From Vulgatibacter incomptus (GTDB lineage: Bacteria > Myxococcota > Myxococcia > Myxococcales > Vulgatibacteraceae), in assembly GCF_001263175.1 (NCBI RefSeq), contig NZ_CP012332.1, positions 3,614,220 to 3,678,219 of the forward strand: DNA of 64,000 nt. Reading direction: 5' to 3'. The notes beneath the pieces are model-generated. The model saw only the letters and a list, made by a program, of their open reading frames with translations. It did not search any database and was not told the DNA's origin. Shown piece by piece: positions 50,441 to 60,457 of this stretch. Both the position numbers and the translations under genes were made by a program. The number at the start of each line of letters is the position of its first letter. Positions within the stretch are counted from its first letter, which is position 1.

Positions 50441-52572
<2,132 letters not shown>

Positions 52573-52681: not shown

Positions 52682-53329
52682 TCAAATGGGCTCCGCCCGA
52701 TGCCCACCCACGAGGTAGAGGCGCTCCCGCATGTCGATGCCGCTCGCGCGGGACTGTGGCCCCTCCGTGCGGCGATCCTCGAGGCGCTCCACCGCGGGGA
52801 AGTAGCGACGCAACTCATCCTCGCCCACCGAAAAGGGCGGACCTGCCATCCGCTCCTGCGGGTACTCGAAGCAGATCACCAGGCCCGGCGCGTCCTCGCC
52901 CGCCAGCTCGCGCAGGTGCGCGGCGTAGCGCGGGCGAAGCTCAGGCGGGAGCGCGACGATCGCCGCTCGATCGTAGAAGGCGGTGATCGCTCCGACGTCC
53001 TCCGGGCGGGCGTCGAAGAAGTCGCCCTGGAGGATCGTGATCCCGCCCGCCGAGCGCTCCACCAACGCGCCGCGCGGCGACGGAGCGGCCTCGAGGCCGT
53101 GCTCCCGAAAGAACTCCTCCGCGGCGGCCTCGGCCAGCTCGATCCCCACGACCTCGTGGCCGAGCGAACGCAGGTACGCCATGTCCTCCGTCTTTCCGCT
53201 CAAGGGGACGAGCACGCGGCCGGGAGGGCCGAGTGCCCGGGCGTGAGAGACGAGGAGATCGTTCGGGCGCCCTTCGTGAAAGCCGATCCGTCCTTCGCGC
53301 CAGCGTGACAGCCAGAATTCCGCATCCAT
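52682..53329 (-). CDS. Thiopurine S-methyltransferase (TPMT) family protein
   Basis: 'MDAEFWLSRWREGRIGFHEGRPNDLLVSHARAL...VLVPLSGKTEDMAYL' is a TPMT N-terminus. The upstream 256 codons of the ORF are the antisense shadow of the patatin gene. Confidence 0.75.
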   Translation of the reverse strand: MDAEFWLSRWREGRIGFHEGRPNDLLVSHARALGPPGRVLVPLSGKTEDMAYLRSLGHEVVGIELAEAAAEEFFREHGLEAAPSPRGALVERSAGGITILQGDFFDARPEDVGAITAFYDRAAIVALPPELRPRYAAHLRELAGEDAPGLVICFEYPQERMAGPPFSVGEDELRRYFPAVERLEDRRTEGPQSRASGIDMRERLYLVGGHRAEPI

Positions 53330-53487
53330 CCCCACAGCATAACGATCGATGCGGGACAGAACGAGAGCGAACGGCGCCCAGGCGCAGTCGACGACCCCCT
53401 CGGCATTCTCGGTGGTTCGGGCGGTCTGGCCCGACCGTGGGCAAGGCCCTGTTGAATTCCAAATGCCAAACGTCGATCTTCGACAGG

Positions 53488-54255
53488 ATGACGATGTCCG
53501 CCCTTGGAACGAGAACTCTCGCCGAATGGCTCGCCGAGGAGCCATTCGCGCTGGCGATGTCCTCCGGATTCTTCTCCTTCTACGCCCACACCGGGTTCTT
53601 GGCGGCGCTCGAGGACGCCGGCCTGACGCCCGCGCGCGTCTCGGGATCGAGCGCAGGAGCGCTGGTCGGGGGCGCCTGGGCCGCGGGCGTCGACGCACCC
53701 GTGCTGGCTGCGGAGCTCGAGCGGCTCGAGCGGCGAGACTTCTGGGACCCGGGCTTCGGGCCCGGGCTCCTTCGCGGCCGCCTGTTTCGCGAGAGGATCG
53801 AAGGTCTCCTACCCGCCGAGACCTTCGACCGTTGCCGTGTGCCGGCGGCCGTCTCCGTCTTCGACGTACGCTCGCGCAAGACGCGCGTGATCGAGATGGG
53901 ACGACTCGGCCCGGCGATCTGCGCGTCGTGCGCCGTCCCGTTCCTTTTCCAGCCCGTGCGGATCGAAGGCCGGTCCTACTTCGATGGCGGGATCCTCGAT
54001 CGGCCCGGTCTCGCGGGGATGCCGCCCAGCACCCCTCGGGTGCTCCACCACCACATCGCCTCGCGCTCACCGTGGCGGATGAGCGCCGAGCCGCCATCGA
54101 GGCAGGGCATGCTCTCCTTCGTCATCGACGGGCTCCCGCGCTCCGGACCCTTTCGACTCGAGGAAGGGCGGCGCGCGTTCAGCCTCGCCCGAGAAGCGAC
54201 GAGGCGGGCCCTCGACCAGCCCGTGAGGGATGAAATCCTCCGTGTGCGGGCCTGA
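53488..54255 (+). CDS. Patatin-like phospholipase
   Basis: 'GTRTLAEWL...MSSGFFSFYAHTGFLAALEDAG' (oxyanion hole), 'GSSAG' (GxSxG) and 'DGG' (catalytic Asp). Confidence 0.8.
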   Translation: MTMSALGTRTLAEWLAEEPFALAMSSGFFSFYAHTGFLAALEDAGLTPARVSGSSAGALVGGAWAAGVDAPVLAAELERLERRDFWDPGFGPGLLRGRLFRERIEGLLPAETFDRCRVPAAVSVFDVRSRKTRVIEMGRLGPAICASCAVPFLFQPVRIEGRSYFDGGILDRPGLAGMPPSTPRVLHHHIASRSPWRMSAEPPSRQGMLSFVIDGLPRSGPFRLEEGRRAFSLAREATRRALDQPVRDEILRVRA

Positions 54256-54397
54256 CGCCCTGTCCACGACGCGTGTCGTGCGCATGGCGGCTTGCCGTCA
54301 GCCGTACTCTCGCACTTCCAATTAGCTACCTTCTCGGCTCATAAGGCATCGCCACCGCCCCCGACGCGAACTCCAGCCGACTCCCCCGCCACGTTGG

Positions 54398-57300
54398 CTA
54401 TTGGACCTGCAACCCGCCGAGGAGCACCTGGTAGCCTGCCGCCCTCGCGTAGTGGGTCGCTGCGATGAACGAACCCCGTCGGGACGGATCGGTCGGCGGC
54501 CCGCCCACGGCGCCGACAGGCGCGCGGAGATCGACGCTGATGAATCCGGATGCGTATGCGGCGGCGAGCGACGGATCGGTGATCGCCACGCGCTGCGATA
54601 CGAGCGGGAAGGTACCGAGGTTCGTTGAGAGCGCCGTCACCTGCTCTTGCTCGTCGAACTCGAGGATCTCTCGGACCGGCAGCGGAAAGCCGGTCGGCAC
54701 GGAGCCGCAGGTGAACGCCGACAGCACCTCAGGCGATTCGCGCCAGACGACGAAGCTCGTCTTCCCGTCGGCGAACGCACCAAAGAGGCTACTAGGCGCG
54801 ACGTTGTTGATGAACCGCGCCTGCCACGCGGTGCCGAGCGGCTCACGGTTGTCGCTCGCGTCCCACGAGACGAACTTGCCGTAGAACGTGGGCCTGCCTG
54901 CAGTCGTCGTAGCCGAGTCGGTGGAGCTCGCCTGAACGTGCACCAACGTGTCGGCGACCGAGACCTTCTGGTTGCGGTCGATGATCGTGTACGTCCCGGA
55001 GAGGTAGTTCTGGTTGGTCGCGTCGCCGATGCCGCCGTTGCCGAAATAGCCGACGTCGCCGGGGACTCGCTGCGTGCAGTTGTTGACGGTGTCGAATGTG
55101 ACGTAGCCGCGCGCAGTCGCGTCCCCGTGCGGGGCGCCGGCGCACTTGCCGTCGAAGCGCAGAGGCGATGCTTTACCCGTGTGCGCGCTCACGAGATCCT
55201 CGATGGCGGCGGCAGAGAGACGCGCTGGGGGGAGCTGGCCAGTGCAGCTCGCGAAGTTCATGTCCTGCGAATAGTCACCTTTGGGCGAAATCCCGTCGTT
55301 CGGGTCCTGACCCGTGCTCGCCGTGAGGTCGACGAGCCCCTTCTGGAAGAGCCACCGCAGGTCGACGAGCGACGAATCATAGCCGGTCAAGTAGACGTTG
55401 AAGCGGTGCGTGGGGAGGCCGTAATCGGTCCACAGGGTCGCGTGGACGAGCACCGCCGACGCGAACAGGTTGACCAGACGAATCTGCGTGTTGACCCCGT
55501 TCGGGTCGACGGTGTCGACCTCGAAGTGCGGGACGAGCAAGGTCGCCGCCGGGGCCACGTCCGAGACCCCGATGGCCGGGGACTTGGTCGGCACAAAGGT
55601 ATTTGTGCCCACGTCGAACACCCCGTCCTGGGGCGGCATCGAGTGATGCGCTCGCGTCGCGCTGTCGACGGCGACCGCCGCGAGGTTCGTACCGAACCTG
55701 GAGAGCGTGCCGTTGCGCGAGCCGGGGTAGTGGATGGCCATCGCGTACGACTGCGCAGCGGCCGGATCGGACGAGGGCCCGCCCGGCGCCGGCGCCATGT
55801 TGCTCGAGAACACGAGGGTGCCGTTCTTGGACGTGACGGGGATCGTGCTGCCGCCGACACGCGTGCGCGTCACGTCGATCTTGAAGGGCTGCGTCGCCGA
55901 CAGCTCGGTCACGCCCTCTTGCATATCGAACGCCAGGAGGCCTTCGCTGCCGAGGGGATAGGTGCTTGGCGGCGTGCCGCACGTGAATGCTTCCTGGCTG
56001 ACGCGCGAGTCTCGCCACACGATCACGTCGGTCTCCTGCGTGGTGAAAGGGATCTCCCAGACCGTCGAGAGAGGCTCACGGTTGTCGGCGGCGTTCCAGC
56101 CCACGTAGCGCCCGTAGAAGGTGTAGCGCCCAGCGGTCGAGGTACGCGCGTCCGACGCGCTTGCCTCAATGTGAACGGCTGGCTGCGCCTGCACGTGAGG
56201 GGTGGCGGCGTCGATAAAGAAGAAGTCGCCGAGCAGGTAGTTCTGGTTCGTCGCGTCCCCGGTTTCGCCCGCACCGAAGTAGCCGGGCATCGACGGAACG
56301 CGCGGCGTGCAGTTGTTCACAGTGTCGATCGTGACGTAGCCGCGGGCGATCGTGTCGCCGTGGTCGGGGCCCGCGCATTTGTCGCCGAGCATCGCCGAGG
56401 ACTTCCCGGTGAGGGCCGACGTCAGGCCCGCGATGCCGTCTGCTGTGAGGTTCGCCGCCGGCAACACGCCGTGGCACGTTGCGTAGTTGATGTCTTGCGA
56501 GAAATCCCCCCGCGGGCTGATCGTGTCCGCCGGATCCTGACCGGCGGTGGCCGTCTGAGGGACTCTGCCGTTGACGAAGAGCTCGCGCAGGCTGATCGAC
56601 TCCACATCGTACCCGGTGAGGTAGACGTGGAAGTGATGGACGGGAACGCCCATCTCGCTCCAAATCGTGACGTTGGTCAGCACCGACGCCGAGTTGGAGT
56701 TCTGGACGGTGATGATCGTGTCGTTCTTGCCGGCGCCGGTATCCACCTCGAAATAGGGATAGAGCAGCGTGGCAGCGGGCACGTTGTCGAGCGTGCCGAT
56801 GGCCGCGTCGGCCGGAAGCGCCGTGAAGAGAACGCCTACACCGAATGGCAGCGCGAGAAGCTCGGACCAAGAGCTTTTGGTCATCTTCTGTCCTGCACGG
56901 CGGCGTCGGAGGGCCAGGTCTACGAACGCGAAGAGCGCGAACAAGCCTGCGGATCCATTCCCGCCGCGCGCATTGCAGCCGCAGCCGCTGTCGGCGGGTG
57001 GCTTGCTGGTGCCGGGGGCGCCTCCATCGTCCTTCTTTACGAGCGAACAGTCTTTGGCGCACTTGCCGCCAGCGGTCCCATTGCGTTCGCCCTCGTCGCA
57101 CTGCTCACCCGGGTCGACCTTTCCGTCGCCACACGGGTTGACAATGGTGACCGTGCCATCGCTGGGTGAGCCCGCCGCGTAGACAATGGTCGGCGCGATC
57201 GTCGCGATGACCGTGCTGTCGTTCGGCGCATCCCGGGTCGGCACCACGTCGACAGTGGCGGAGGCAGCTCCCTCCGGAATCGTGATGAGGCCGTCGAGTG

Positions 57301-58045
57301 GCGCATACGCGCTCGCTTCGGCAGTGCCGGAGACCGTGTACTTGACAACCAATGCATCGGTCATGTCACCAGTGCGAGCAAAGGTGAACTGGCCGGGCTT
57401 CCCCCCCACGACGGCTGTCGCCTGGCTTGCGGAGACGGTGACGAGCGGCAAGGGACAGGGCAAGTCGAGCGCCCAGCCGTCAATCGCCCCACTGCCGTAT
57501 CCGGCGCTGTCGGAGACGCGCAAGCTCCACGCTCCCTCGCGGCCCTTGCTGTTCAAGGTAGAGAGTGGATTGAGCGGCAAGAGGTTGCCGGAGATCGAGG
57601 GAAACGTCTCTTCGCACTCGCTGGTGCCGGGTGTAGTGGCGCCATCGCTGAAATGAACCTCGATGTCCTCGCCAGCACAGCCGTGGAGATTGCCGGCGGC
57701 GACGCCGGGCCTATCCATCAGCAAGACTTCCGTCCCGTCGGGATGAATTACGCTCAGGGTCAGATCCCCGACCCATTGATGCGAGAGTTTCACGCGCACT
57801 CCCGTCGCAGCGATGGGCGCTTGCGGGTCGCACTCGCGGGGCATCACGTTCAGCGATGATATGACGGTCTGGTTGTCCGGCACGAGTGCGTCGCAATTGG
57901 TCGAGGGCGGCGACTCGCCGCAGCTGTAGCGCTGCGCGGGCACGCGCGCAGGCGCGAACGCGGAGACGGCAGCGATGGCGACGGCCAGGGCGCTTCGAGC
58001 ACACGTGAACCACGACGAGCCGACCGATTCGATGAGTGGGTGCAT
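54398..58045 (-). CDS. One continuous ORF that appears to fuse two secreted proteins. Part (i), about 58045-56900, has a signal peptide, a P/proprotein-convertase-like beta domain, a Cys-rich myxo repeat and a MYXO-CTERM tail. Part (ii), about 56894-54398, has its own signal peptide and two tandem roughly 300-aa domains of unknown type.
   Basis: Part (i) has 'VKLSHQWVGDLTLSVIHPDGTEVLLMDRPG', 'CGDGKVDPGEQCDEGERNG' and 'SGCGCNARGGNGSAGLFALFAFVDLALRRRRAGQK'. It is followed, with no stop codon, by 'MTKSSWSELLALPFGVGVLFTALPADA' and then the repeats 'ATLLYPYFEVDT...' and 'ATLLVPHFEVDT...'. Confidence 0.6.
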   Translation of the reverse strand: MHPLIESVGSSWFTCARSALAVAIAAVSAFAPARVPAQRYSCGESPPSTNCDALVPDNQTVISSLNVMPRECDPQAPIAATGVRVKLSHQWVGDLTLSVIHPDGTEVLLMDRPGVAAGNLHGCAGEDIEVHFSDGATTPGTSECEETFPSISGNLLPLNPLSTLNSKGREGAWSLRVSDSAGYGSGAIDGWALDLPCPLPLVTVSASQATAVVGGKPGQFTFARTGDMTDALVVKYTVSGTAEASAYAPLDGLITIPEGAASATVDVVPTRDAPNDSTVIATIAPTIVYAAGSPSDGTVTIVNPCGDGKVDPGEQCDEGERNGTAGGKCAKDCSLVKKDDGGAPGTSKPPADSGCGCNARGGNGSAGLFALFAFVDLALRRRRAGQKMTKSSWSELLALPFGVGVLFTALPADAAIGTLDNVPAATLLYPYFEVDTGAGKNDTIITVQNSNSASVLTNVTIWSEMGVPVHHFHVYLTGYDVESISLRELFVNGRVPQTATAGQDPADTISPRGDFSQDINYATCHGVLPAANLTADGIAGLTSALTGKSSAMLGDKCAGPDHGDTIARGYVTIDTVNNCTPRVPSMPGYFGAGETGDATNQNYLLGDFFFIDAATPHVQAQPAVHIEASASDARTSTAGRYTFYGRYVGWNAADNREPLSTVWEIPFTTQETDVIVWRDSRVSQEAFTCGTPPSTYPLGSEGLLAFDMQEGVTELSATQPFKIDVTRTRVGGSTIPVTSKNGTLVFSSNMAPAPGGPSSDPAAAQSYAMAIHYPGSRNGTLSRFGTNLAAVAVDSATRAHHSMPPQDGVFDVGTNTFVPTKSPAIGVSDVAPAATLLVPHFEVDTVDPNGVNTQIRLVNLFASAVLVHATLWTDYGLPTHRFNVYLTGYDSSLVDLRWLFQKGLVDLTASTGQDPNDGISPKGDYSQDMNFASCTGQLPPARLSAAAIEDLVSAHTGKASPLRFDGKCAGAPHGDATARGYVTFDTVNNCTQRVPGDVGYFGNGGIGDATNQNYLSGTYTIIDRNQKVSVADTLVHVQASSTDSATTTAGRPTFYGKFVSWDASDNREPLGTAWQARFINNVAPSSLFGAFADGKTSFVVWRESPEVLSAFTCGSVPTGFPLPVREILEFDEQEQVTALSTNLGTFPLVSQRVAITDPSLAAAYASGFISVDLRAPVGAVGGPPTDPSRRGSFIAATHYARAAGYQVLLGGLQVQ

Positions 58046-58168
58046 TGATCGGTTACAGTACGCCTGAGCAATACCGCCCACAACCGAAATCAATGCGCTC
58101 TCTCGATTCGGTTCGAGGTCGCGTTCGACGGAGAGTCGGGCACCGGATGGAGCGCGAAGGCCGACGAA

Positions 58169-59602
58169 TCAGCGCGTCGCGCCGACCGTCCAGACCTTGA
58201 GCGCGCCTTGTGAGGCGCAGGCGTCGGTCTCGCTGAGGCCGTCGCTCTCGCCCGCGAACGAGGCAAGGAGCTCGTCCTTGCCGTCGTGATTCAGATCGAC
58301 GCAGCGCACTCGGTAGCCTCGGCAACCTTCGTGGCCGGCGTTCGGCACGCGGAGGTCCTGCGTCACGAAGCCACGACCGTCCGCGGCGAAGAGCGAGATG
58401 GTGCCGTCGTCGCGCGCGACCGCGAGGCTCCTGCCTGCGTTGACGCCGTCGAAGTTGCATACGGCGAGGGCCGTGTAGCCGTTGCGCGATTCCTCGCGCG
58501 CGATCTCACGGCGCTCGAAAGTTCCCATGCGATTGAAGAACACATCGACGCCGACGAACCAGGTTTCGCCTTCGCTTTGCGCGTACGCTACGACCAGATC
58601 GTCGCGTGAATCGCCGTCGAGGTCCGCGAGCGCCACCGAGCGGATGAGTCCGCGCTCGCGCAGGCCGTCGAGAGGCACCGGAACGAACGCTCCAGCGGCC
58701 CATCGAAAGAGCACACGCGTCTCACCAAGAGTATTCGATCCGACGGCCAGGTCTTTCATGCCGTCGCCGTCGATGTCTCCGAGCGCGAACGAGTCGCCGA
58801 ACAGACGGTCGAGGGCGGTCGTCGCGAGCGCATCGAGTTTCCAGTCGCGTTGCGCATTTCCGGGCCCGTTCCGGCCTGTCAACGTGAAGAGACGAACCCC
58901 GAGGGAAGTGGCGCCGCGATCCGATTTGGACGGAGGTCTCGGGCCGTCGCTCAGTGCGAGGATCGCTTGGCGGCCGTCGTCACCCAAGTCAGTCGTGAGG
59001 AGCGTGCGCGAACCGAAGGGAGCTCCGACCTCGAGATCGAGCCCGCGCCCGAGCGACGAGAAGTGCCCATGGCCATCATGACGAAACGCGGCGACGCCCT
59101 TCAAGTGCACCGCGAAGGCGAGGTCCAGCACCCCGTCGCCGTCGAGATCCGCCGCGCGCACGTCACCGTAGTCGAAGTCGACGGGCGGAAAGGTCGCCTC
59201 TTTCCACGCGCGCCAATTGCCATGACCGTCGCCGAGGTAGATTACCGGCCGCAACGGGAACGTCTTGCGCGCAGGGCCGTGCACGATGTCGAGCTCGCCG
59301 TCGCCGTTCAGATCGGCGACGTCGAAGCCGTTCCGCCACTGGCCGGCCGCGGGCAATCCTTGGTCGAACCCGGTTACCGTGAGCCGCTTCGTCGAAGGGA
59401 GGTCGACCAGCGACGGGCCCGGTGTCGACACCGACGCCGACACCATCGTCGGCGCTATGCCAGACGGGCACGGATGCGCCTCGTCGCACGAGCCGTCGAT
59501 CTGCGGAGACTGACGACCTTCGCTGCGAATGACGGCGAAGGTCGCGGCGAGACCGGCCATTGCAAGGGCCGCAACCAACGCGAGTCGAACAGGGGAGCTC
59601 AA
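58169..59602 (-). CDS. FG-GAP / VCBS-repeat protein (integrin-alpha-like beta-propeller), secreted
   Basis: Repeated 'DLNGDGELD', 'DLDGDGVLD', 'DIDGDGMKD', 'DLDGDSRDD' and 'DLNHDGKDE' Ca-binding FG-GAP motifs. A signal-like 'SSPVRLALVAALAMAGLAATFAV' follows a TTG start. The start is uncertain. Confidence 0.7.
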   Translation of the reverse strand: MSSPVRLALVAALAMAGLAATFAVIRSEGRQSPQIDGSCDEAHPCPSGIAPTMVSASVSTPGPSLVDLPSTKRLTVTGFDQGLPAAGQWRNGFDVADLNGDGELDIVHGPARKTFPLRPVIYLGDGHGNWRAWKEATFPPVDFDYGDVRAADLDGDGVLDLAFAVHLKGVAAFRHDGHGHFSSLGRGLDLEVGAPFGSRTLLTTDLGDDGRQAILALSDGPRPPSKSDRGATSLGVRLFTLTGRNGPGNAQRDWKLDALATTALDRLFGDSFALGDIDGDGMKDLAVGSNTLGETRVLFRWAAGAFVPVPLDGLRERGLIRSVALADLDGDSRDDLVVAYAQSEGETWFVGVDVFFNRMGTFERREIAREESRNGYTALAVCNFDGVNAGRSLAVARDDGTISLFAADGRGFVTQDLRVPNAGHEGCRGYRVRCVDLNHDGKDELLASFAGESDGLSETDACASQGALKVWTVGATR

Positions 59603-59836
59603 AGCGCGGGCATTGTACCACGCGCGGTCACAGGGCCCCGCGGAAAGCGCTGGCACGAGGCAGCCCGCACCTCCGACCGGCGATGGGTCTACGCGCCCGA
59701 CAACTTGTCCAAGGGAAGGAGACAGGCTGTCCGATTCGACGAGGTCCTCAAGCAGGCCAAGGCCGACCGCCGGACCGCCGGACCGCGTGGCTGGTCCCTC
59801 GCGTCCGCCGTCCACCATGTGTCGTCCGCCGTGCGC

Positions 59837-60457
59837 CTACCGCTTCCGGACGGCGTAGGTCAGGTGCGTCACCCTCGGGGAGGGTTCCGAGTGGACCGGC
59901 ACCAGGGCCACGCGACCCGCGTCCACGCCCTCGAACAGGCGGATTCCGGAGCCGAAGAGCACGGGCGACAGTGCGATCGAGAACTCGTCGATCAGGCCGG
60001 CGTTCACGTACTCCACGATCGTCGCGCCGCCGCCGGCGATGCGGACGTCGCGGTCGCCGGCGGCCTCGCGGGCCTGGCCGAGCGCGGACTCGATGCCGTC
60101 GTTGACGAAGTGGAAGGTGGTGCCGCCCGGCCGCTCCCAGGGATCACGCTTCTCGTGCGTCAACACGAAGACCGGCGTGTGGAACGGCGCCTCCTCCGGC
60201 CACGCGTGCTCGCCGGCGTCGAACATGCGCTTGCCCATGACGCTCGCGCCGGTGCGCTCGAACGTCTCCCGCACGATGTCGTTGTCGCGACCCTCCTCGC
60301 CGCCCTCACCGAGCTTCAGCCTCTCCCGGAGGTACCGCTGCGGGAAGAGCCACTGATGGAGCTCCATCCACTGCTGCCCCATCAAGTCCTCGGGGGACTC
60401 GGGCGCGATGAACCCGTCCAGCGACATCGAGACACTGAAGAACACCTTACCGGCCAT
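59837..60457 (-). CDS. Dihydrofolate-reductase-like (RibD_C) family protein
   Basis: 'KVFFSVSMSLDGFIAPE' and '...IAGGGATIVEYVNAGLIDEFSIALSPVLFGSG'. Confidence 0.75.
   Translation of the reverse strand: MAGKVFFSVSMSLDGFIAPESPEDLMGQQWMELHQWLFPQRYLRERLKLGEGGEEGRDNDIVRETFERTGASVMGKRMFDAGEHAWPEEAPFHTPVFVLTHEKRDPWERPGGTTFHFVNDGIESALGQAREAAGDRDVRIAGGGATIVEYVNAGLIDEFSIALSPVLFGSGIRLFEGVDAGRVALVPVHSEPSPRVTHLTYAVRKR

What the first reader, a model, noticed from the sequence alone, without database searches (positions are those of the whole stretch)
54398..58093. Stop-less junction between a MYXO-CTERM protein and a downstream secreted protein; tandem pair of an unrecognised roughly 300-aa domain
The sequence '...SGCGCNARGGNGSAGLFALFAFVDLALRRRRAGQK' is a MYXO-CTERM sorting tail and should be a protein C-terminus. 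It runs straight, with no stop, into 'MTKSSWSELLALPFGVGVLFTALPADA', which is a new signal peptide. Two homologous domains of about 300 aa follow, beginning 'ATLLYPYFEVDT...' and 'ATLLVPHFEVDT...', each with conserved Cys, 'YLTGYD' and 'GDATNQNYL'. I do not recognise them. This is either a recent fusion through loss of a stop codon, or a base-call error. The P-domain ('VKLSHQWVGDLTLSVIHPDGTEVLLMDRPG') suggests a protease-associated partner.
Basis: seen in the sequence. Interest (0 to 1): 0.65.

Follow-up and report, generated by a model that had tools for sequence, protein, structure and literature searches.

The report
Conserved fusion with internal sorting signals
Two neighbouring genes for exported proteins in a myxobacterium have merged into one, keeping the first protein's membrane-anchor tail and the second protein's export signal in the middle; several related genomes share this merger, so it is not a sequencing error, and the second half consists of two copies of a widespread protein domain that no database describes.

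Summary
The minus-strand ORF 54398-58093 has no stop between a MYXO-CTERM-like tail (GCGC, hydrophobic helix, RRRR; aa 368-399) and a signal-peptide-like segment (aa 400-430, A-D-A|AIGTLD). Two homologous units follow, about 400 aa each rather than 300, and 47% identical.

It is neither a base-call error nor a recent accident. At least five other sequences, from Labilithrix luteola and several metagenome-assembled genomes and contigs, are 74-88% identical over the repeat half (67-84% over the full length in the genome loci) and keep the same in-frame junction. The Cys motif, RRRR and AxA site are invariant in them. RefSeq already annotates the 1215-aa protein.

In more distant genomes the two halves are separate, tightly coupled genes in the opposite order. 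There the repeat protein has its own N-terminal signal peptide and the P-domain protein has a true C-terminal MYXO-CTERM. A homologous FG-GAP gene usually sits next to them.

Most likely the precursor inserts as a two-helix hairpin, and signal peptidase I and myxosortase cut it into two extracytoplasmic proteins. This is inferred, not shown. Rare internal MYXO-CTERM fusions are already noted in the literature (MXAN_5598), so the kind is known.

The repeat domain matches nothing in Pfam or NCBIfam and has no PDB sequence match. Only a ~100-aa TM1070/ASRT-like beta-sandwich core is recognisable. The family holds about 2,200 clusters at 50% identity.

The parts
54398..58045 (-). Fused gene (1215 aa from M17, stop at 54398-54400). 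It is the same as RefSeq WP_082343234.1, 'proprotein convertase P-domain-containing protein', of Vulgatibacter incomptus. The mechanical ORF extends to a TTG at 58093.
   Evidence: The orthologs start at the equivalent Met.
57932..58045 (-). N-terminal signal peptide (aa 17-54, 'MHPLIESVGSSWFTCARSALAVAIAAVSAFAPARVPAQ').
   Evidence: Hydrophobic peak at aa 29-52. It aligns with the N-termini of the orthologs. The cleavage site is inferred.
57464..57802 (-). Proprotein-convertase-type P-domain (aa 98-210).
   Evidence: PF01483, E = 1.4e-7, 31.9 bits against a cut-off of 21.
57140..57454 (-). Beta-rich module after the P-domain (aa 214-318), probably Calx-beta-like or Ig-like.
   Evidence: The window protein itself gives no Pfam hit here. 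The homologous stand-alone partner in L007 gives a weak Calx-beta hit (E = 0.0024). Beta strands are predicted in the full-length model. The assignment is inferred.
57044..57136 (-). One cysteine-rich acidic 'myxo disulfide' repeat (aa 320-350, 'CGDGKVDPGEQCDEG...').
   Evidence: TIGR02232, 17 bits, below the 20.8 cut-off. The stand-alone partners in L007 and L009 carry 4-7 clear copies at 192 and 107 bits.
56897..56992 (-). Internal MYXO-CTERM-like tripartite sorting tail (aa 368-399): the GCGC motif, the hydrophobic helix 'SAGLFALFAFVDLAL', and RRRR.
   Evidence: TIGR03901 covers profile positions 1-33 of 34 at 17.6 bits, under the cut-off of 20. CGC and RRRR are invariant in the six fused orthologs. 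The position corresponds to the true C-terminal MYXO-CTERM of the stand-alone partners, which score 30.8 and 30.1 bits.
56804..56896 (-). Short basic loop (AGQKMTKSS) followed by an internal signal-peptide-like segment (aa 400-430) with an A-D-A|A site. The relic start codon ATG (M404) lies at 56882-56884.
   Evidence: It aligns column for column with the N-terminal signal peptides of the stand-alone homologs P0008 and P0009, '...AHA|VIGTLD'. AxA is invariant in the fused orthologs.
55574..56803 (-). Repeat unit 1 of the uncharacterised ~400-aa secreted domain (aa 431-840).
54401..55573 (-). Repeat unit 2 of the same domain (aa 841-1231).
   Evidence: It is 47% identical to unit 1, E = 1e-106. 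It keeps all the family-wide conserved polar residues and the four Cys.
58169..59818 (-). Upstream FG-GAP/VCBS repeat protein gene. The span given is the maximal ORF of 549 aa; the real start is probably about 80-100 codons further in. It is a conserved neighbour and was inherited together with the fused gene.
   Evidence: PF13517, E = 7e-24; PF01839, E = 1.6e-17. A homolog lies directly upstream in L001, L002, L005 and L006 at 71-87% identity, and is adjacent to repeat-domain genes in about 20 of 79 loci.

Best explanation
This is a real, evolutionarily stable gene fusion of two functionally linked exported proteins.

**Ancestral state.** It is still seen in Polyangia, Sandaracinaceae and another myxobacterial genome, and in Acidobacteriota and Dokdonella. 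There is a tightly coupled gene cluster with three parts:
- an FG-GAP protein;
- one or two genes for a novel ~400-aa secreted domain, each with its own signal peptide;
- a P-domain protein carrying a C-terminal sorting tail, which is MYXO-CTERM in Myxococcota and looks IPTL-CTERM-like in Acidobacteriota.

**The fusion.** In the lineage shared by Vulgatibacter incomptus and Labilithrix, the P-domain gene came to lie in front of the tandem-domain gene and the two reading frames merged. The sorting tail and the signal peptide ended up side by side in the middle of one 1215-aa precursor.

**Proposed mechanism (inferred).**
1. The N-terminal signal peptide starts Sec export of the P-domain half.
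2. The MYXO-CTERM helix stops transfer, leaving RRRR and the basic loop in the cytoplasm.
3. The next hydrophobic segment, oriented N-in and C-out, restarts translocation of the 800-aa tandem-domain half. The junction therefore forms a two-helix hairpin that obeys the positive-inside rule.
4. Signal peptidase I cuts after A-D-A (aa 430) and releases the tandem-domain protein with the conserved mature N-terminus AIGTLD.
5. The Cys motif is lipidated and cut by myxosortase MrtX. [quoted passage not shown]

The net result would be two mature extracytoplasmic proteins made in 1:1 ratio from one gene. They probably act together with the FG-GAP protein at the cell surface. The P-domain protein would be the anchored subunit, and the novel domain would be a ligand-binding (possibly carbohydrate-binding) or catalytic head.

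**About the confidence figure.** The single value covers the whole statement. Taken separately, I put the claim that the fusion is real and conserved at about 0.97, and the two-protease processing model at about 0.5.
For: **Shown**
- There is no stop at the junction.
- The same in-frame junction occurs in P0002-P0006 and in L002, L003, L005 and L006.
- Within the variable junction (54-60% mean identity), CGC, RRRR, the two hydrophobic stretches and AxA|AIGTLD are invariant.
- The internal Met is lost in L. luteola (ATG to ACG) and deleted in P0004. The downstream half therefore cannot depend on its own initiation at that codon in those lineages.
- The internal hydrophobic segment aligns with the N-terminal signal peptides of the stand-alone homologs.
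- The stand-alone P-domain partners end in bona fide MYXO-CTERM, at 30.8 and 30.1 bits, directly followed by a stop.
- The two modules are adjacent and coupled in unfused genomes of three phyla: an ATGA overlap in L020, a 17-nt spacer in L009, and one TAG plus 27 nt in L007.
- The FG-GAP neighbour was inherited together with the fused gene.
- AF2 models the junction, aa 304-435, as non-globular with pLDDT < 50, while both repeats fold confidently.

**From the literature**
- MYXO-CTERM consists of a Cys motif, a transmembrane helix and a cytoplasmic Arg tail. [quoted passage not shown]
- Rare internal MYXO-CTERM motifs exist (MXAN_5598) and are proposed to be processed.
- Sorting tags have been reported to work when internal. 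All three points are from PMC11980579.
- V. incomptus is one of the MYXO-CTERM-positive proteomes used to define myxosortase (bioRxiv 10.1101/2023.06.07.544157).
Against: - No cleavage has been observed. Every processing step is inferred from sequence.
- The internal tail scores just below the TIGR03901 cut-off, at 17.4-19.8 bits.
- In V. incomptus and P0004 the first helix is four residues shorter than in the other orthologs. In V. incomptus it is only about 15 residues long and contains an Asp.
- After signal-peptidase cleavage, MrtX would face a tail about 31 residues longer than usual, carrying a second helix. Whether it accepts this is unknown.
- AF2 predicted no helices at the junction, although that region is of low confidence.
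- The function of the novel domain, and any physical interaction between the two halves, are untested.
Confidence: 0.6

Rival explanations
1. The hairpin is an uncleaved membrane anchor. The former sorting tail and signal peptide now serve only as two transmembrane helices, holding both periplasm-facing halves in the inner membrane as one bitopic protein. Neither myxosortase nor signal peptidase processes it.
For: - The MYXO-CTERM HMM score lies below the cut-off.
- The first helix in V. incomptus is short and contains an Asp.
- The tag is not C-terminal, which is the defining position for the family.
Against: - A simple anchor would need neither the CGC motif nor the small-x-small A-x-A site followed by the conserved mature N-terminus.
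- Yet these are invariant across six fused orthologs, while the surrounding junction has diverged to 54-60% identity.
- Sorting tags have been reported to function when internal (PMC11980579).
Confidence: 0.2
2. There are two products through internal translation initiation. Ribosomes start independently at M404, which has an AGGA 6 nt upstream in the window. This would make the tandem-domain protein as a normal secreted protein, with the read-through fusion as a by-product.
For: - An ATG is kept at this position in the window, L002, L003, L005 and P0005.
- An AGGA lies 6 nt upstream of it in the window.
- The ATG carries a TGA in the +1 frame, which looks like a relic of an ATGA gene overlap.
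- The original GenBank annotation called an 848-aa product from this region.
Against: - Because the upstream frame has no stop, every ribosome translating the P-domain half must continue. The fusion is therefore always made.
- L. luteola has ACG at this position and no start codon there, and P0004 has the segment deleted, so internal initiation at this codon is not conserved.
- The 848-aa GenBank call starts inside the transmembrane helix and looks like a gene-caller artefact. RefSeq replaced it with the 1215-aa protein.
Confidence: 0.12
3. It is an artefact or a pseudogene. A sequencing or assembly error, or a very recent inactivating mutation, removed the stop or shifted the frame between two genes.
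For: - In the +1 frame the junction reads ...QDRR* with the TGA overlapping the ATG. A single-base indel just upstream could therefore interconvert an overlapping gene pair and a fusion.
Against: - The same frame and junction occur in a second complete genome (L. luteola) and in several independent metagenome assemblies.
- Both halves are under clear purifying selection, at 68-80% mean identity.
- No unfused P-domain-then-repeat arrangement was found in any locus.
Confidence: 0.02

Closest known systems
Internal MYXO-CTERM in Myxococcus xanthus MXAN_5598 (Guo, Haft & Wall, mBio 2025, PMC11980579)
   Same: - It is a presumed fusion of two genes that leaves a MYXO-CTERM motif in the middle of one ORF.
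- The N-terminal part is a surface protein, and the C-terminal part also has to be exported.
- The authors propose that the N-terminal part is still processed and anchored on the surface. They note that such internal motifs are rare.
   Different: - The partners differ: an adhesin plus an outer-membrane beta-barrel/OmpA, like TraA/TraB, against a P-domain protein plus a soluble tandem domain here.
- Here the fusion is documented in several genera of two classes, and the cleavable signal peptide visibly survives.
- Here the gene order is reversed relative to the unfused relatives.
- Processing has not been shown experimentally in either case.
Canonical MYXO-CTERM / myxosortase (MrtX) sorting, e.g. 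TraA
   Same: It has the tripartite tail (GCGC motif, transmembrane helix, Arg cluster) after a Sec-exported surface protein that carries myxo disulfide repeats. The host belongs to the Myxococcota and is counted among the MYXO-CTERM-positive proteomes.
   Different: The tail is followed by 832 further residues instead of the C-terminus. The HMM score is 17.6 bits against a cut-off of 20.
Non-C-terminal tripartite sorting signals processed by their sortase: the LPXTG work of Navarre & Schneewind 1994, and the Haloferax volcanii ArtA substrate of Abdul Halim et al. 2017. Both are known here only as cited in PMC11980579; the papers themselves were not read.
   Same: A sorting tag can still be recognised when sequence follows it.
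   Different: They involve different enzymes and signals. As far as I recall, which I did not verify, the downstream part is not a second secreted protein with its own signal peptide.
Polyproteins cut at internal signal peptides: Bradyrhizobium japonicum FbcH, the cytochrome b/c1 precursor (Thony-Meyer et al. 1991), and flavivirus structural polyproteins.
   Same: One precursor contains a membrane-spanning helix of the upstream protein, followed by a signal sequence for the downstream protein. Signal peptidase separates the two.
   Different: In those cases the upstream partner stays an integral membrane protein. Here it is predicted to be released from its helix by a second, intramembrane protease and lipid-anchored.
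TM1070 / ASRT beta-sandwich superfamily (PDB 1nc7 and 2ii7; De Souza, Iyer & Aravind 2009, PMC2739507)
   Different: It covers only about 100 of 413 residues. Sequence identity is 6-10%, and there is no Pfam ASRT hit. The remaining ~300 residues, with four conserved Cys and the invariant residues E449, D496, D590, D670, R672 and R694, have no counterpart.

Membership tests
MYXO-CTERM sorting domain (TIGR03901) | Short signature motif with an invariant Cys (generic GCGC) | tested here: met
   'SGCGCN' at aa 369-374. CGC is invariant in all six fused orthologs.
MYXO-CTERM sorting domain (TIGR03901) | Transmembrane helix directly after the motif | tested here: met
   There is a Kyte-Doolittle peak at aa 380-396. 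The helix is short, about 15 residues with one Asp, in V. incomptus. It is about 19 residues in P0002, P0003, P0005 and P0006.
MYXO-CTERM sorting domain (TIGR03901) | Arg-rich cluster after the helix | tested here: met
   RRRR at aa 396-399, invariant in the orthologs.
MYXO-CTERM sorting domain (TIGR03901) | Located at the extreme C-terminus of the protein | tested here: not met
   832 residues follow it. In the stand-alone homologs from L007, L009 and L020 the tail is followed by a stop within 5-7 residues.
MYXO-CTERM sorting domain (TIGR03901) | HMM score at or above the curated cut-off (20 bits) | tested here: not met
   The score is 17.6 bits over profile positions 1-33 of 34. The fused orthologs score 17.4 and 19.8 bits, and the stand-alone partners 30.8 and 30.1 bits.
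MYXO-CTERM sorting domain (TIGR03901) | Host encodes myxosortase MrtX, and the tail is cut by it | not testable with these tools
   V. incomptus appears among the MYXO-CTERM-positive proteomes in Haft's analysis. I did not look for mrtX in the window, and cleavage needs an experiment.
Sec / signal peptidase I signal peptide (internal copy, aa 400-430) | Positive n-region, hydrophobic h-region of about 10-15 residues, and small residues at -3 and -1 | tested here: met
   K403 and K406; 'LLALPFGVGVLFTAL'; A-D-A|A. This was judged by inspection, because no SignalP-type predictor was available.
Sec / signal peptidase I signal peptide (internal copy, aa 400-430) | Homologous in position to genuine N-terminal signal peptides of family members | tested here: met
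   It aligns with the N-termini of P0008 and P0009, 'M..LLLWAVLSLPLAAHA|VIGTLD'.
Sec / signal peptidase I signal peptide (internal copy, aa 400-430) | Located at the N-terminus of the translated product | tested here: not met
   403 in-frame residues with no stop precede it. The internal Met is not conserved.
Proprotein convertase P-domain (PF01483) | HMM score above the gathering threshold | tested here: met
   31.9 bits against 21, aa 98-210.
Kexin/furin-type proprotein convertase (peptidase S8 plus P-domain) | A subtilisin-like catalytic domain N-terminal to the P-domain | tested here: not met
   There is no Peptidase_S8 hit, nor any other peptidase hit, anywhere in the 1231-aa ORF at E <= 1. 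Only about 40 residues lie between the signal peptide and the P-domain.
ASRT / TM1070 superfamily | A beta-sandwich of about 110-125 aa recognisable by the family's sequence profile | tested here: not met
   None of the 33 repeat-family sequences scanned gives a Pfam ASRT hit. A PDB sequence-profile search finds neither 1nc7 nor 2ii7.
ASRT / TM1070 superfamily | Structural similarity of the fold | tested here: inconclusive

The most novel reading that the evidence does not exclude
The most novel reading that the evidence does not exclude has two parts.

- **The junction.** It would be a selected 'two-signal hairpin' that lets one precursor be cut by two different membrane proteases, signal peptidase I and myxosortase. 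That would deliver a lipid-anchored P-domain subunit and its soluble partner in fixed 1:1 stoichiometry.
- **The gene set.** The FG-GAP, novel-domain and anchored P-domain genes would form a previously undescribed cell-surface module, possibly glycan-binding or glycan-processing. It is found in Myxococcota and Acidobacteriota, and in one Dokdonella genome. The ~400-aa domain would be its functional head; the family has about 2,200 clusters at 50% identity and no annotation.
Probability: 0.35. Interest if true: 0.6.

Novelty: new member of a known kind. Interest (0 to 1): 0.45.

Why it matters
**As a test of sorting-tag position.** This is a natural experiment on whether a 'C-terminal' sorting tag must really be C-terminal. 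The internal MYXO-CTERM is conserved and followed by a retained, cleavable-looking signal peptide. That gives the myxosortase field a clean substrate for testing recognition of internal tags and the order of cleavage. It is a second, better-conserved example beside MXAN_5598.

**As a link between modules.** The fusion and the conserved neighbourhood act as a Rosetta stone. They link three modules: the FG-GAP protein, the P-domain anchor protein, and a large unannotated domain family common in Thermoanaerobaculia and Myxococcota. This gives the family a context and makes it a candidate for a Pfam or NCBIfam entry and for structural work.

**As an annotation point.** The GenBank 848-aa call is wrong and the RefSeq 1215-aa call is right. 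The name 'proprotein convertase P-domain-containing protein' hides two thirds of the protein.

Tried and rejected
- **AlphaFold-database fold search.** The afdb50 library was not installed, so predicted-structure relatives could not be surveyed.
- **BFVD viral structures.** There were no matches at E <= 0.001. PHROGs gave nothing for either repeat. Only the C-terminal Peptidase_S74 domain of some single-domain homologs is phage-like.
- **Protein search with the N-terminal half (aa 55-403).** It returned only two unrelated weak hits and missed even the known orthologs, probably because low-complexity words saturated the candidate list. I characterised the partner proteins from the fetched loci instead.
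- **The look-up of encoding contigs for P0006.** It is not on record. The L. luteola locus came from the genome scan instead (L006).
- **Promoter and terminator scan of 54100-60100.** It found fewer hits than the shuffles and was uninformative. The 7-bp inverted repeat it found at 56865-56882 has a mismatch in the one ortholog I checked by eye (L002), so I treated it as chance.
- **Protease idea.** There is no peptidase signature anywhere. The family-wide invariant residues include no Ser or His.
- **Programmed frameshifting onto the +1-frame TGA at the junction.** I considered and dropped it. There is no slippery site, and the TGA is absent in L. luteola.
- **Literature.** A search for bacterial polyproteins with internal signal peptides gave nothing useful. 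PMC5350275 (Abdul Halim 2017) is not held.
- **Full-length AF2 model.** It gave pTM 0.69. The tool returns no contact or PAE output, so docking of the P-domain half onto the repeats could not be judged.

Full report
**1. What is in the window**

The region 54398-58093 holds one uninterrupted minus-strand ORF of 1231 codons, counted from a TTG. '...SGCGCNARGGNGSAGLFALFAFVDLALRRRRAGQK' (aa 369-403) continues in frame into 'MTKSSWSELLALPFGVGVLFTALPADA' (aa 404-430), and the ATG lies at 56884-56882.

The window comes from Vulgatibacter incomptus. The C-terminal 848 residues are identical to GenBank AKU92743.1. The 1215-aa product that starts at M17 (58045) is identical to RefSeq WP_082343234.1, 'proprotein convertase P-domain-containing protein'. 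The fused reading frame is therefore already annotated as one protein in RefSeq. The original GenBank call, which starts inside the hydrophobic helix, is a truncation.

**2. Domain content**

| Feature | Residues | Evidence |
|---|---|---|
| P-domain (PF01483) | 98-210 | 31.9 bits, cut-off 21 |
| 'Myxo disulfide' repeat (TIGR02232) | 320-350 | 17 bits, just below cut-off |
| MYXO-CTERM (TIGR03901) | 368-399 | 17.6 bits over the whole model, cut-off 20 |
| Repeat units | 431-840 and 841-1231 | no family hit at E <= 1 |

- Pfam finds only the P-domain, and nothing at all downstream of aa 430.
- Outside the folded domains, the only strongly hydrophobic 15-residue windows are aa 29-52 (N-terminal signal peptide), 380-396 and 409-435.
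- The two downstream units are 47% identical over 376 residues, E = 1e-106.
- Their period is about 409 aa, so the units are about 400 aa rather than about 300.

**3. Not an error and not recent**

A protein search with aa 404-1231 found five other full-length fused proteins of 1191-1220 aa, 74-88% identical over that query. They carry the P-domain. They come from Labilithrix luteola, a Labilithrix sp. MAG and metagenome contigs. The genome scan added 'Myxococcales bacterium 68-20' and a fragment; there full-length tblastn identity is 67-84%.

The alignment shows that every one keeps the same sequence of features:
- the N-terminal signal peptide, P-domain, beta module and Cys-rich repeat;
- then [S/G]CGC, a hydrophobic stretch and RRRR;
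- then a short basic loop and a second hydrophobic stretch;
- then A-[E/D]-A|AIGTLDNVPAATLL.

Mean pairwise identity among the six fused proteins varies by region:

| Region | Mean pairwise identity |
|---|---|
| N-terminal signal peptide | 0.40 |
| P-domain half | 0.68 |
| Sorting tail | 0.60 |
| Loop plus second hydrophobic segment | 0.54 |
| Repeat 1 | 0.76 |
| Repeat 2 | 0.80 |

The junction thus evolves as signal sequences do, with free sequence but fixed physicochemical features, and the diagnostic residues stay invariant.

At the DNA level the Met codon at the junction is kept in the window, L002, L003 and L005 and is also present in the P0005 protein. In each of the four loci it carries a TGA in the +1 frame, which may be a relic of an ATGA gene overlap. 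In L. luteola it has become ACG, and in P0004 it is deleted. Translation through the junction is therefore the conserved mode of expression.

Vulgatibacter and Labilithrix belong to different classes of Myxococcota. I did not resolve whether they share the fusion by descent or by lateral transfer. Only the FG-GAP gene is syntenic around it.

**4. Where the two halves come from**

More distant homologs of the C-terminal half (at most 47% identity) fall into three groups:
- stand-alone tandem proteins of 760-910 aa;
- single-domain proteins of about 455 aa;
- single domains followed by PKD, Big, Calx-beta, BACON, DUF11, alpha/beta-hydrolase, NHL or Peptidase_S74 modules.

The stand-alone proteins begin with a normal signal peptide. 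It aligns exactly with the internal hydrophobic segment of the fused protein, for example 'MRRLVRLLVWLAALWAPVSAHA|VIGTLD'.

In six unfused loci the repeat gene(s) are directly followed on the same strand by a homolog of the N-terminal half, which is 27-41% identical. These loci are L007 (Polyangia), L009, L020 (Sandaracinaceae), L022 (Thermoanaerobaculia), L038 (Acidobacteriota) and L055 (Dokdonella).

- In the Myxococcota that partner ends in a genuine C-terminal MYXO-CTERM. It scores 30.8 and 30.1 bits in L007 and L020, and GC_trans_RRR scores 20.5 bits in L009. An example is '...DSGCGCRTAGGSSATLAWGALLWAGLALGRLRRRRASRRR*'.
- In L038 the partner ends in an IPTL-CTERM-like tail that is sub-threshold at 15.8 bits. 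By eye the L022 tail looks similar, but no sorting-signal model matched it.
- The gene pairs are tightly coupled: an ATGA overlap in L020, a 17-nt spacer in L009, and one TAG plus 27 nt in L007.
- A homolog of the window's upstream FG-GAP gene (58169-59818) is adjacent in all of these loci except L038, and in about 20 of 79 loci overall. It tracks the fused gene in identity: 86-87%, 71%, then about 40%.

The ancestral unit is therefore an FG-GAP gene, the repeat gene(s), and a P-domain gene with a sorting tail. In the Vulgatibacter/Labilithrix lineage the order of the last two is inverted and they are fused. The fusion is derived, arose once, and is not a simple stop-codon loss between genes in their ancestral order.

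**5. How the junction most likely works (inference)**

The tail and the signal peptide have complementary topologies. The first is a stop-transfer helix with a cytoplasmic Arg cluster. The second is an N-in, C-out helix preceded by Lys residues. Together they form a hairpin that obeys the positive-inside rule and places both large halves outside the cytoplasm. Cleavage after A-D-A by signal peptidase I would free the tandem-domain protein with exactly the mature N-terminus that its stand-alone relatives have.

[quoted passage not shown] Under that model the P-domain half would then be matured as usual.

The same paper makes three relevant statements:
- MXAN_5598 is interpreted as a two-gene fusion whose N-terminal part is still processed;
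- there is evidence that sorting tags function when they are not C-terminal.

The kind of feature is therefore known, and this is a further, well-conserved example.

Precedents for signal-peptidase cleavage at internal signal sequences after a membrane helix include the B. japonicum FbcH precursor and flavivirus polyproteins. I cite these from my own knowledge and did not verify them here.

The strongest argument for retained processing is the invariance of CGC and AxA in an otherwise drifting linker. The main caveats are these:
- the HMM score is sub-threshold;
- the first helix in V. incomptus is short and contains an Asp;
- the tail that MrtX would have to accept is longer than usual.

The full-length AF2 model (pLDDT 73.5, pTM 0.69) leaves aa 304-435 unstructured with pLDDT < 50. 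That fits a flexible, non-globular junction but says nothing about membrane helices.

**6. The unrecognised domain**

A model of unit 1, built on 33 sequences, is confident (pLDDT 88.7, pTM 0.89) and almost all-beta.

- Foldseek agrees, and nothing reaches E <= 0.001.
- The TM1070/ASRT superfamily consists of beta-sandwiches predicted to bind sugars, including extracellular versions (PMC2739507).
- Only about a quarter of the unit is explained this way.
- There is no hit in Pfam, NCBIfam, PHROGs, PDB sequences or BFVD.

A profile search of 1.84 billion representative proteins finds 2,176 clusters at E <= 0.001 and 1,064 at E <= 1e-30. In the genome scan the family is mostly found in Thermoanaerobaculia and other Acidobacteriota and in Myxococcota, with members also in Candidatus Binatia and Dokdonella.

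Across 299 domain instances the following are at least 85% conserved:
- PxATLLxP[YH]FEV;
- W478 and YLTGxD;
- four Cys (540, 573, 595, 705);
- GYxTxD590, N618, TFY, D670-x-R672, W693-R694 and D723.

Both units in the window keep them. A conserved set of carboxylates and arginines would suit either a ligand-binding site or a catalytic site, and I cannot tell which. The associated domains and signal peptides indicate an extracellular or cell-surface role.

Some single-domain homologs end in the Peptidase_S74 intramolecular chaperone typical of trimeric phage tail spikes. This hints that the domain may oligomerise.

No peptidase domain is present in the protein, in the neighbours scanned, or in the family members scanned.

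**7. Verdict**

The 'error or recent stop loss' interpretation is replaced by a conserved, derived fusion of two functionally linked genes that retains both sorting signals.

The internal-tag phenomenon has a published precedent, so I rate it a new member of a known kind. The added value lies in three things:
- the clear evolutionary reconstruction;
- a testable two-protease hairpin model;
- a large unannotated domain family with conserved FG-GAP and anchored P-domain partners.

Interest is moderate, at 0.45.

Noticed in passing
window 54647-57169 (+), also 56166-57101 (-) and other long ORFs: A stop-free 840-codon ORF lies antisense to the fused gene, and many other long overlapping ORFs occur in off-frames. 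This is the usual artefact of about 66-70% G+C and not evidence of genes.
   Followed up: no
window 56882-56950 (start of GenBank AKU92743.1): The original GenBank annotation (AKJ08_3130, 848 aa) starts at a codon inside the MYXO-CTERM hydrophobic helix, and that call does not cover the P-domain half. RefSeq re-annotated the locus as one 1215-aa protein.
   Followed up: partly
window 56865-56882: A 7-bp inverted repeat (GACCAAGAGCTTTTGGTC on the + strand) overlaps codons 404-410, right after the relic ATG. It was flagged by the terminator scan. The L002 ortholog has a mismatch in the stem, so it is probably chance.
   Followed up: partly
window 50743-52572 (-): A 609-aa ORF has a hydrophobic N-terminus ending in '...AWGQLGC', so it may be a lipoprotein. 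About six tandem Cys-rich ~35-40-aa repeats follow (one EGF_3 hit, E = 4.7e-7), then a C-terminal beta-rich region. It is another secreted or surface protein of unknown function.
   Followed up: partly
window 52682-54255: Judged from the translations, two convergent genes lie just downstream of the fused gene. One looks like a patatin-like phospholipase (+ strand, ending at 54255, with a 'GSSAGA' motif). The other looks like a thiopurine-methyltransferase-like gene (- strand, 'MDAEFWLSRWREGRIGFHEG...'). If so, the fused gene is the last gene of its transcription unit. Neither was scanned against a family library.
   Followed up: no
L007 8415-8470: In this Polyangia MAG the repeat gene and the P-domain gene are in the same frame, separated only by one TAG and 27 nt. 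A single substitution would create a fusion in the opposite order to the one in the window.
   Followed up: partly
L038 8300-10408 and L022 6147-7295: In Acidobacteriota the P-domain partner ends in an IPTL-CTERM-like tail instead of MYXO-CTERM: '...AIPTLSFWMMFLLAAALAAAAL...' and '...VPALSPMMLMLLGGLLGLAGMLVL...'. L038 also carries a choice-of-anchor U domain. The anchor type changes with phylum while the partner protein stays. Only L038 gave an HMM hit, and it was sub-threshold at 15.8 bits.
   Followed up: partly
P0055, P0064, P0065, P0067, P0068, P0075, P0083, P0105 (homologs): A subgroup of single-domain homologs carries a C-terminal Peptidase_S74 'chaperone of endosialidase' domain. This is the self-cleaving trimerisation chaperone of phage tail spikes, which suggests that the novel domain can be presented as a trimer.
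   Followed up: partly
window 56909-56950 versus P0002, P0003, P0005, P0006 (alignment A1, columns 392-406): The sorting-tail helix is four residues shorter in V. incomptus and P0004 than in the other fused orthologs, and in V. incomptus it contains an Asp ('LFALFAFVDLAL'). This might weaken membrane anchoring or alter recognition by myxosortase.
   Followed up: no
L008, L010, L011, L013, L014, L019, L052-L054, L079, L080: Many Acidobacteriota loci carry three consecutive copies of the repeat-domain gene, and several genomes have multiple such loci (for example MFD09368.bin.2.205 and MFD01213.bin.1.234). The family is strongly expanded in Thermoanaerobaculia.
   Followed up: no
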